DNA from: Escherichia coli
GTDB lineage: Bacteria > Pseudomonadota > Gammaproteobacteria > Enterobacterales > Enterobacteriaceae
Length of the DNA: 3,612 bases
Reading direction: 5' to 3' (one strand)
Assembly: GCF_003334255.1 (NCBI RefSeq)
Contig: NZ_QOWU01000118.1
Shown here: positions 1 through 631 of the stretch, piece after piece
How the letters are laid out: the number at the start of each line of letters is the position of its first letter
Position numbering within the stretch: position 1 is the first letter of the stretch
Program-made: the position numbers and the translations under genes
The notes under the pieces: model-generated
Database searches by the model: none
Seen by the model: the letters and a program-made list of their open reading frames with translations, nothing else
What the model was told of the DNA's origin: nothing

Positions 1-101
1 TCTTCGTCAAAAACAACGGGGCGACCATCAAACAGCGTCGCCCCGTGTTCATGCTGCTCGAGTGCATCCAGCACTGCGGCACGAATGTCAGTGTGTTTCA
101 T
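1..101 (-). CDS. U: Tail terminator protein (lambda gpU-like), 5' portion only; continues beyond the start of the window
   Basis: Minus-strand ATG at 101-99 followed by an open frame to the window edge, encoding MKHTDIRAAVLDALEQHEHGATLFDGRPVVFDE, which matches the lambda gpU N-terminus as I recall it. The ATG overlaps the Z stop in the sequence ATGA. Confidence 0.85.
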   Translation of the reverse strand, partial: MKHTDIRAAVLDALEQHEHGATLFDGRPVVFDE

Positions 102-631
102 CGTTTTATTGCAATCCTCAGTTGTTGTTTCAGCGCGTATGCCAGTTCTTTAGGCAGGCGTTCACGCCGGATACGGTCAACATTCTCATCAAATGCCTGT
201 TTCAGTGGGGCCGCCATCGGGATTTTCACCACATCAATGGGGTAACGGTTTTTCCCGGCCACACGCTGCATGACATGCCAGCGACCATTTTTTAATCGCT
301 GAATAAATGCCCGCTGATACCGATGCTGACCGGCTTTAAGTATGCTGTTCGGGCGACGCCCCAGCATCCTGATCCCCAGCTTAATCACAGGGAGATCACC
401 GCGGTTAACGATAATTCTGGCATTCGGATTTCTGACCGTCGCCCGTTTCAGTCTGGACCGTTCCTTTACCAGTTTCCGTCTCACCCTGGTTTCCCGGGCA
501 ACCTGTGACGAAGACTGATTAATCGCCGTTGTGGCCACGCGGTTAATCGTCATTGCTGAAGCCGCCGGAATGGCGTTTTTACGAACCCGGCTCAGATTAT
601 CAATCGCCTGATCAAGCCCTTTTATCGCCAT
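98..631 (-). CDS. Z: Tail completion / head-tail joining protein (lambda gpZ-like), 177 aa
   Basis: Translation MAIKGL.QA..NLSR........A.AM.INRVA..AI.QS.SQVARET.VRRKLVKER.RLKRATV.NP.ARI.VNRGDLPVIKLG...FIQ.LKNGRWHVMQRVAGKNRYPIDVVKIPMA.PL resembles lambda gpZ. Position between FII and U. Its stop overlaps the U start (ATGA). Confidence 0.88.
   Translation of the reverse strand: MAIKGLDQAIDNLSRVRKNAIPAASAMTINRVATTAINQSSSQVARETRVRRKLVKERSRLKRATVRNPNARIIVNRGDLPVIKLGIRMLGRRPNSILKAGQHRYQRAFIQRLKNGRWHVMQRVAGKNRYPIDVVKIPMAAPLKQAFDENVDRIRRERLPKELAYALKQQLRIAIKR

What the first reader, a model, noticed from the sequence alone, without database searches (positions are those of the whole stretch)
98..631. 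Z-like protein appears about 15 aa shorter than lambda gpZ
The Z-like ORF encodes 177 aa, whereas I recall lambda gpZ as about 192 aa. The conserved N- and C-terminal blocks are present, so the difference would be an internal deletion in the basic central region. This is a minor mosaic difference, flagged only for completeness, and relies on memory of the lambda length.
Basis: inference. Interest (0 to 1): 0.12.

Follow-up and report, generated by a model that had tools for sequence, protein, structure and literature searches.

The report
Common short-loop variant of lambda gpZ
The gene is an ordinary, intact copy of the lambda-type tail completion protein Z, and it is 15 residues shorter than lambda's only because one flexible, arginine-rich surface loop is shorter, a form carried by prophages in roughly a fifth of complete E. 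coli genomes.

Summary
The minus-strand ORF 631..98 encodes 177 aa, and lambda gpZ is 192 aa. The two proteins are colinear end to end at 68% identity. All 15 missing residues lie between the conserved VIKLG and AFIQ motifs.

It is not a clean deletion. DNA identity in that segment falls to about 47%, against 76-83% in the flanks. AlphaFold2 models of both proteins have the same secondary-structure elements. The difference is the loop joining two beta strands: 6 residues (GRRPNS) here and 20 residues (LSRRRRRKKGQRSSLKGGGS, low confidence) in lambda.

Across 77 diverse family members this segment ranges from 18 to 46 residues. The window has 21, which is typical. Lambda has 36, which is an outlier.

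The 177-aa form is abundant. It fills protein clusters of more than 1,000 member sequences. An estimated 900-1,100 of 5,426 complete E. coli genomes carry it. GenBank phages PhiR5_1 (identical protein), the PhiR12 phages and 2B8 (82% identical) also have it.

This is a known, common length variant in a lambdoid gene that shows recombination within the gene. Interest is low.

The parts
98..631 (-). Z gene: tail completion protein (gpZ family), 177 aa, ATG start at 631..629, TGA stop at 100..98
   Evidence: ORF list. Pfam PF06763 full-length match, E 8.6e-59. PHROG 27 'tail completion or Neck1 protein', E 4.9e-63. The gene is 100% identical in DNA to a CDS of E. coli EC2 annotated WP_000975007.1, and the protein is 100% identical to the Z protein of phage PhiR5_1.
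311..373 (-). Variable segment A, residues 87-107 (IRMLGRRPNSILKAGQHRYQR). It corresponds to lambda residues 87-122 (36 aa). All 15 missing residues map here.
   Evidence: BLASTP and MAFFT alignments. DNA identity to lambda is 47% here against 76% and 83% in the flanks. The segment is 18-46 aa long across 77 family members.
344..361 (-). Tip of the beta hairpin, residues 91-96 (GRRPNS), joining strands 87-90 and 97-100. The equivalent lambda loop is 20 residues (92-111, LSRRRRRKKGQRSSLKGGGS).
   Evidence: AlphaFold2 models: window mean pLDDT 93.6 with strands E87-90 and E97-100; lambda mean pLDDT 92.0 with strands E88-91 and E112-115, and pLDDT 62-69 over residues 91-110.
248..262 (-). Second indel site (loop B), residues 124-128 (VAGKN). 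The window has the short form. A 191-aa sister allele carries a 14-residue insertion here.
   Evidence: Alignments. E. coli 142 locus L002. The 72-nt insertion sequence is present in 447 of 5,426 genomes.
636..642 (-). Shine-Dalgarno-like AGGGTGA upstream of the Z start. The FII stop codon TAA lies at 649..647.
   Evidence: Read directly from the sequence.
1..101 (-). 5' part of the U gene (tail terminator). Its ATG at 101..99 overlaps the Z stop as ATGA.
   Evidence: Sequence. The translation MKHTDIRAAVLDALEQHEHGATLFDGRPVVFDE is 79% identical to the lambda U N-terminus. Lambda Z and U overlap in the same way.
647..1000 (-). FII gene (head-tail joining / head closure protein), 117 aa, immediately upstream of Z
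   Evidence: ORF list. It is 91% identical to phage 21 FII and 69% to lambda FII.

Best explanation
Window 631..98 (minus strand) is an intact, functional allele of the lambdoid tail completion protein gpZ.

The predicted fold has two long antiparallel helices (residues 6-48 and 140-176) that carry a small beta domain (about 59-134) at one end. The 15-residue shortfall relative to lambda gpZ comes from one beta hairpin of that domain. The two strands are conserved (IRML/ARVV and ILKA/VLVV), but the loop joining them is 6 residues here and 20 in lambda. The remaining residue is lost just before the first strand. Half of the loop's positive charge is lost, but two arginines remain.

This loop is an indel hotspot of the whole family. 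Long and short forms have been shuffled among different Z backgrounds by recombination within the gene.

By analogy with the solved tail completion protein of phage 80alpha/SaPI1, the protein probably sits as a monomer in the neck lumen, between the end of the packaged DNA and the N-termini of the tape measure protein. The variable basic loop would then lie in the beta domain at the apex, possibly facing DNA. The location and the DNA contact are inferred and were not shown here.
For: **Identity and completeness**
- Pfam Minor_tail_Z matches full length and PHROG 27 matches.
- The gene order is FII-Z-U with an ATGA overlap onto U.
- The alignment with lambda is colinear.

**Structure**
- The AlphaFold2 models of the window protein and of lambda gpZ are confident (mean pLDDT 93.6 and 92.0). 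They have the same list of secondary-structure elements and differ only in the length of the inter-strand loop.

**How common the form is**
- 177-aa clusters P0003 (1,218 member sequences), P0004 (1,164) and P0024 (117, E. albertii).
- 1,572 of 5,426 complete E. coli genomes hold at least 80% of the gene, mostly at 95-99% identity.
- 1,318 genomes hold the short loop A region, and 447 of the 5,426 carry the loop B insertion.
- GenBank phage records carry it: PhiR5_1 (host listed as E. coli C) has a 100% identical protein, and PhiR12_5 and 2B8 also encode 177-aa forms.

**Loop as an indel hotspot**
- Segment A is 18-46 aa across 77 diverse members.

**Recombination**
- All four combinations of N-terminal type and loop type exist: the window, P0039, P0024/2B8 and lambda.
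- Phage 21 has 91%-identical FII with the long loop. 2B8 has 68%-identical FII with the short loop.
Against: - No experiment here shows that the 177-aa protein is assembled into tails or is needed for infectivity.
- That the phages carrying it are viable rests only on GenBank record metadata. I found no paper describing them.
- gpZ has never been resolved in lambda cryo-EM maps (PMC10721106, PMC12617516). The T5 tail completion protein was placed at the tail tip and not in the neck (PMC11784142). The neck-lumen location and any DNA contact of the loop are therefore extrapolations.
Confidence: 0.9

Rival explanations
1. [not shown]
For: It is shorter than the reference lambda protein and loses 6 of the 12 basic residues of the segment. 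Many E. coli prophages are defective; the EC2 prophage with an identical Z has a frameshifted tail assembly gene further downstream.
Against: - The reading frame is intact and is conserved at 95-100% DNA identity across more than 1,000 genomes and in E. albertii.
- An identical protein is encoded by the GenBank phage PhiR5_1, and 177-aa forms by the PhiR12 phages and the more distant phage 2B8.
- A loop of 21 aa is typical for the family.
- The AlphaFold2 model is more confident than that of lambda.
Confidence: 0.04
2. The length difference is an ORF-calling artefact: a wrong start codon, a frameshift or a sequencing error in the window.
For: None found. The ORF listing does overextend the neighbouring FI ORF to an upstream GTG, so start calls deserve a check.
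Against: - The N-terminus MAIKGL and the C-terminus IKR align residue for residue with lambda.
- The gap is internal and in frame (45 nt net).
- The same 534-bp gene occurs in independent complete genomes and phage records.
Confidence: 0.01
3. The loop length is an adaptive specificity determinant. It is matched to a partner (the cos DNA end, the tape measure protein N-terminus, or FII/U), or it is under diversifying selection from host defences that sense incoming tail proteins.
For: - The loop is the most variable part of an otherwise conserved protein.
- In 80alpha the tail completion protein presents a positive surface to the DNA end and contacts the tape measure protein.
- gpZ was weakly labelled by proximity labelling (TurboID fused to the inner-membrane protein ManZ) during lambda genome injection.
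Against: - Short and long loops both occur with the phage-21-type FII. The short loop also occurs with a lambda-distant head module in 2B8. So there is no linkage to FII.
- Nothing here tests the tape measure protein or cos.
- Surface-loop indels are the default pattern of neutral protein evolution.
Confidence: 0.08

Closest known systems
Bacteriophage lambda gpZ (NP_040590.1 / UniProt P03731), the prototype tail completion protein
   Same: It belongs to the same Pfam family and has the same gene position (FII-Z-U, with an ATGA overlap onto U). It is 68% identical and colinear over its full length. The predicted secondary-structure elements are the same.
   Different: Segment A is 21 aa here and 36 aa in lambda. 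The hairpin loop is 6 residues against 20. The segment has 6 fewer K+R. DNA in this segment is essentially unrelated (47% identity).
RefSeq WP_000975007.1 'phage tail protein' (E. coli EC2 prophage) and XSB41325.1 'tail component protein Z' of Escherichia phage PhiR5_1
   Same: The 177-aa protein is identical. The EC2 gene is 100% identical in DNA. The flanking FII (98%) and the U N-terminus (100%) are also similar.
   Different: Nothing differs in Z. The neighbouring FI differs (50% identity), which shows a mosaic junction upstream.
191-aa Z allele (cluster P0014; E. coli 142, WP_001575631.1)
   Same: It has the same short loop A. DNA is 98% identical in the N-terminal flank and 94% in the central block.
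   Different: It carries a 14-residue insertion after HVMQR, where LPQARYEEGNDDKGRKKRNRLPIQ replaces VAGKNRYPID. This brings it back to nearly the length of lambda by a different route.
80alpha/SaPI1 gp51 tail completion protein (PDB 9mu2 chain P; HK97 gp10 family)
   Different: Sequence identity is only 12%. It is 109 aa against 177 aa and belongs to a different Pfam family. It lacks the extra apex beta domain that holds the variable loop. It comes from a headful-packaging phage, whereas lambda packages from cos ends.

Membership tests
Pfam PF06763 Minor_tail_Z (lambda gpZ family) | Significant full-length match to the family HMM | tested here: met
   E 8.6e-59, score 199. Residues 3-177 match model positions 1-190 of 190.
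Pfam PF06763 Minor_tail_Z (lambda gpZ family) | End-to-end colinearity with lambda gpZ | tested here: met
   BLASTP aligns 1-177 to 1-192 at 68% identity, with gaps only in the central segment.
Tail completion protein / Neck1 (PHROG 27; Ne1 of Lopes et al. 2014) | Profile match to the tail completion / Neck1 family | tested here: met
   phrog_27 'tail completion or Neck1 protein', E 4.9e-63, residues 1-176.
Tail completion protein / Neck1 (PHROG 27; Ne1 of Lopes et al. 2014) | Gene lies between the head completion gene (FII) and the tail terminator gene (U), upstream of the major tail protein gene | tested here: met
   The window order is FII (1000..647), Z (631..98), then the U start at 101. 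The same order, continuing V-G-T-H, is seen in the identical EC2 and PhiR5_1 loci.
Tail completion protein / Neck1 (PHROG 27; Ne1 of Lopes et al. 2014) | Fold of two side-by-side long helices plus a small beta sheet, resembling a solved tail completion protein | tested here: met
   [not shown]
Tail completion protein / Neck1 (PHROG 27; Ne1 of Lopes et al. 2014) | Present in the tail or virion and required for infectious particles | not testable with these tools
   Known only for lambda gpZ and SPP1 gp16.1 from the literature. There are no data for this allele.
NCBIfam curated families | Match above a curated cut-off | tested here: not met
   No NCBIfam model matched. RefSeq names the protein only 'phage tail protein'. 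This reflects the lack of a model and is not evidence against membership in the gpZ family.

The most novel reading that the evidence does not exclude
The basic hairpin tip of the apex beta domain may be the part of gpZ that touches the end of the packaged DNA or the tape measure protein. If so, the natural polymorphism (6-residue against 20-residue loop, plus the independent loop B insertion) would be a functional tuning of DNA-end positioning or ejection, and not neutral drift. The co-circulating 177-, 191- and 192-aa alleles would then be a ready-made natural mutant series for locating gpZ and working out how it acts, which is still unresolved in lambda.
Probability: 0.1. Interest if true: 0.3.

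Novelty: already known. Interest (0 to 1): 0.05.

Why it matters

The one useful by-product is a map of where gpZ tolerates change. Two surface loops of the apex beta domain accept indels of 14-15 residues, while the two long helices and the beta strands are conserved. That could guide tagging or loop-swap experiments on a protein whose position in the lambda virion is still unknown.

Tried and rejected
- **PDB sequence search:** it found no relative even at E up to 1.
- **NCBIfam:** no model matched.
- **Tandem Repeats Finder:** it found nothing in the window, so the indel is not a DNA tandem-repeat expansion or contraction.
- **Literature on the PhiR phages:** no paper was found, so their viability rests on record metadata only.
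- **Exact allele counts in E. coli genomes:** I could not count 534-bp against 576-bp alleles directly, because the search lists at most 60 rows. The figure of 900-1,100 genomes is derived by subtracting the 447 genomes from the 1,318 and the 1,572, and from the even-step listing. It is an estimate.
- **Linkage of loop length to the FII allele:** rejected on the six loci compared.
- **Direction of change (deletion here or insertion in lambda):** this could not be settled. Intermediate forms of 23-32 aa exist among close relatives.

Full report
**What is in the window.** All the long ORFs lie on the minus strand. They form a lambdoid head-to-tail module:
- the C-terminal part of C/Nu3 (3542..2898);
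- D (2861..2514);
- E (2456..1428);
- FI (probably ATG 1376..993; the 143-aa GTG start listed by the ORF tool is an overextension);
- FII (1000..647);
- the flagged ORF (631..98, 177 aa);
- the first 33 codons of U, whose ATG overlaps the Z stop as ATGA.

Lambda has the same order and the same Z/U overlap.

**Checking the observation.**
- BLASTP gives 131/192 identities, E 7e-84, and 15 gap positions. All of them lie between the conserved VIKLG and AFIQ motifs.
- Pfam Minor_tail_Z matches residues 3-177 over the whole 190-position model at E 8.6e-59. PHROG 27 ('tail completion or Neck1 protein') matches at 4.9e-63.

The ORF is a real, complete gpZ homologue, and the shortfall is internal.

**What the difference is.** A DNA alignment with lambda, phage 21, phage 2B8 and an E. 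coli prophage shows that the central block is not a clean deletion. Identity to lambda is 76% in the N-terminal flank and 83% in the C-terminal flank. In the central block it is only 47% over the 64 alignable positions, with 45 gap positions.

I predicted both proteins with AlphaFold2 from a 77-sequence alignment of diverse family members. Both models are confident (mean pLDDT 93.6 for the window, 92.0 for lambda). They have the same elements: a long N-terminal helix, a beta region and a long C-terminal helix.

| Feature | Window | Lambda |
|---|---|---|
| First strand | 87-90 (IRML) | 88-91 (ARVV) |
| Second strand | 97-100 (ILKA) | 112-115 (VLVV) |
| Loop between them | 6 residues (GRRPNS) | 20 residues (LSRRRRRKKGQRSSLKGGGS) |
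| Mean pLDDT of the 10-residue blocks covering the loop | 83 | 62-69 |

Fourteen of the 15 residues are therefore hairpin-loop residues, and one lies just before the first strand. Segment A drops from 12 to 6 K+R. The whole protein stays extremely basic (pI about 12 in both).

**Is 177 aa unusual? No.**
- The protein search returned 177-aa clusters with 1,218, 1,164, 117 and 57 member sequences. It also returned lambda-type 192-aa clusters and a 191-aa class.
- In 5,426 complete E. coli genomes, 1,572 hold at least 80% of this gene, mostly at 95-99% identity.
- 1,318 genomes hold the short loop A region.
- 447 genomes carry a 42-nt insertion at a second site.
- By subtraction, roughly 900-1,100 genomes, about a fifth, have the 177-aa architecture. 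This is an estimate.
- The E. coli EC2 prophage gene is 100% identical in DNA and is annotated WP_000975007.1.
- GenBank phage PhiR5_1 encodes the identical protein. The PhiR12 phages and the more distant phage 2B8 (82% identity) also encode 177-aa forms.

Across 77 diverse family representatives, total length runs 172-213 aa (median 185). Segment A runs 18-46 residues with a mode of 18. The window's 21 is typical and lambda's 36 is near the long end. Close relatives have intermediate lengths of 23-32, so I cannot say whether lambda gained residues or this allele lost them.

**Mosaicism.**
- All four combinations of N-terminal type and loop type exist: the window, P0039, P0024/2B8 and lambda. 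This indicates recombination inside Z.
- A 191-aa allele is 98% identical to the window in the N-terminal flank. It has the same short loop A and a 14-residue insertion after HVMQR.
- The window's D, E and FII are 91-95% identical to those of phage 21, yet phage 21 has the long-loop 192-aa Z (67% identity).
- Phage 2B8 has a dissimilar head (E 61%, FII 68%) and the short-loop Z.

Loop length is therefore not tied to the FII allele.

**How it probably works.** gpZ is the prototype tail completion protein. Lambda particles lacking it look normal but are mostly non-infectious, which has been attributed to misplacement of the DNA end at the head-tail interface (PMC11099176, PMC11784142). It is present in virions by mass spectrometry but has never been resolved in lambda cryo-EM maps (PMC10721106, PMC12617516).

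It is an inference that the loop faces the DNA end or another partner. The T5 tail completion protein was assigned to the tail tip, so even the location is not settled. gpZ was weakly labelled by proximity labelling (TurboID fused to the inner-membrane protein ManZ) during lambda genome injection.

**Verdict.** The interpretation as a minor difference is right, but the interpretation as a deletion is too simple. This is a known, common allele of a known protein, and interest is low.

Noticed in passing
window 1400..1420 (minus strand), between the E stop (1428) and the FI start (1376): A strong terminator-like hairpin, GCGGGGGCGAAATGCCCCCGT followed by GTCTTTTTTC (9 pairs, 7 of them G-C), lies directly after the major capsid gene. 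The core GGGGGCGAAATGCCCCC is also present at the same place in phage 21 and in the EC2, E. coli 142 and PhiR5_1 loci. It is absent from the lambda and 2B8 loci.
   Followed up: partly
window 2485..2506 (minus strand), between the D stop and the E start: A perfect 8-bp inverted repeat, TCAGGCCA-CCGCGT-TGGCCTGA, lies in the D-E intergenic spacer. The exact sequence is present in the EC2, E. coli 142 and PhiR5_1 loci but not in phage 21, lambda or 2B8. Its function is unknown.
   Followed up: partly
window 2898..3542 (minus strand), C/Nu3 C-terminus: The scaffold/protease C-terminus contains three diverged copies of about 40 aa of a motif (xMxxxxC/LxEAKGxE...GMTVExARxIL). Lambda C has a single copy. 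Phage 21 has the same three copies, one with a K-to-N change. This may account for the 501-aa length of C against 439 aa in lambda. No DNA-level tandem repeat is detectable.
   Followed up: partly
window 993..1376 (minus strand), FI: FI is a mosaic hotspot. It is 100% identical to the FI of E. coli 142 but only 45-50% identical to the FI of phage 21, EC2 and PhiR5_1, although the flanking E and FII are 91-99% identical in those loci. The blastn alignments to phage 21 and EC2 break inside FI, with unaligned stretches at reverse-complement coordinates 2359-2599 and 2363-2558 respectively. The ORF tool's 143-aa GTG start is probably an overextension. ATG 1376 has an AGGAGG upstream.
   Followed up: partly
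L002 3501..4076 (E. coli 142) and protein clusters P0014/P0029; corresponds to window 248..262: A third Z architecture of 191 aa has the same short loop A plus a 14-residue mixed-charge insertion (LPQARYEEGNDDKGRKKRN...) in a second loop after HVMQR. The insertion is found in 447 of 5,426 complete E. coli genomes, and a similar insertion occurs in the distant family member P0134.
   Followed up: partly
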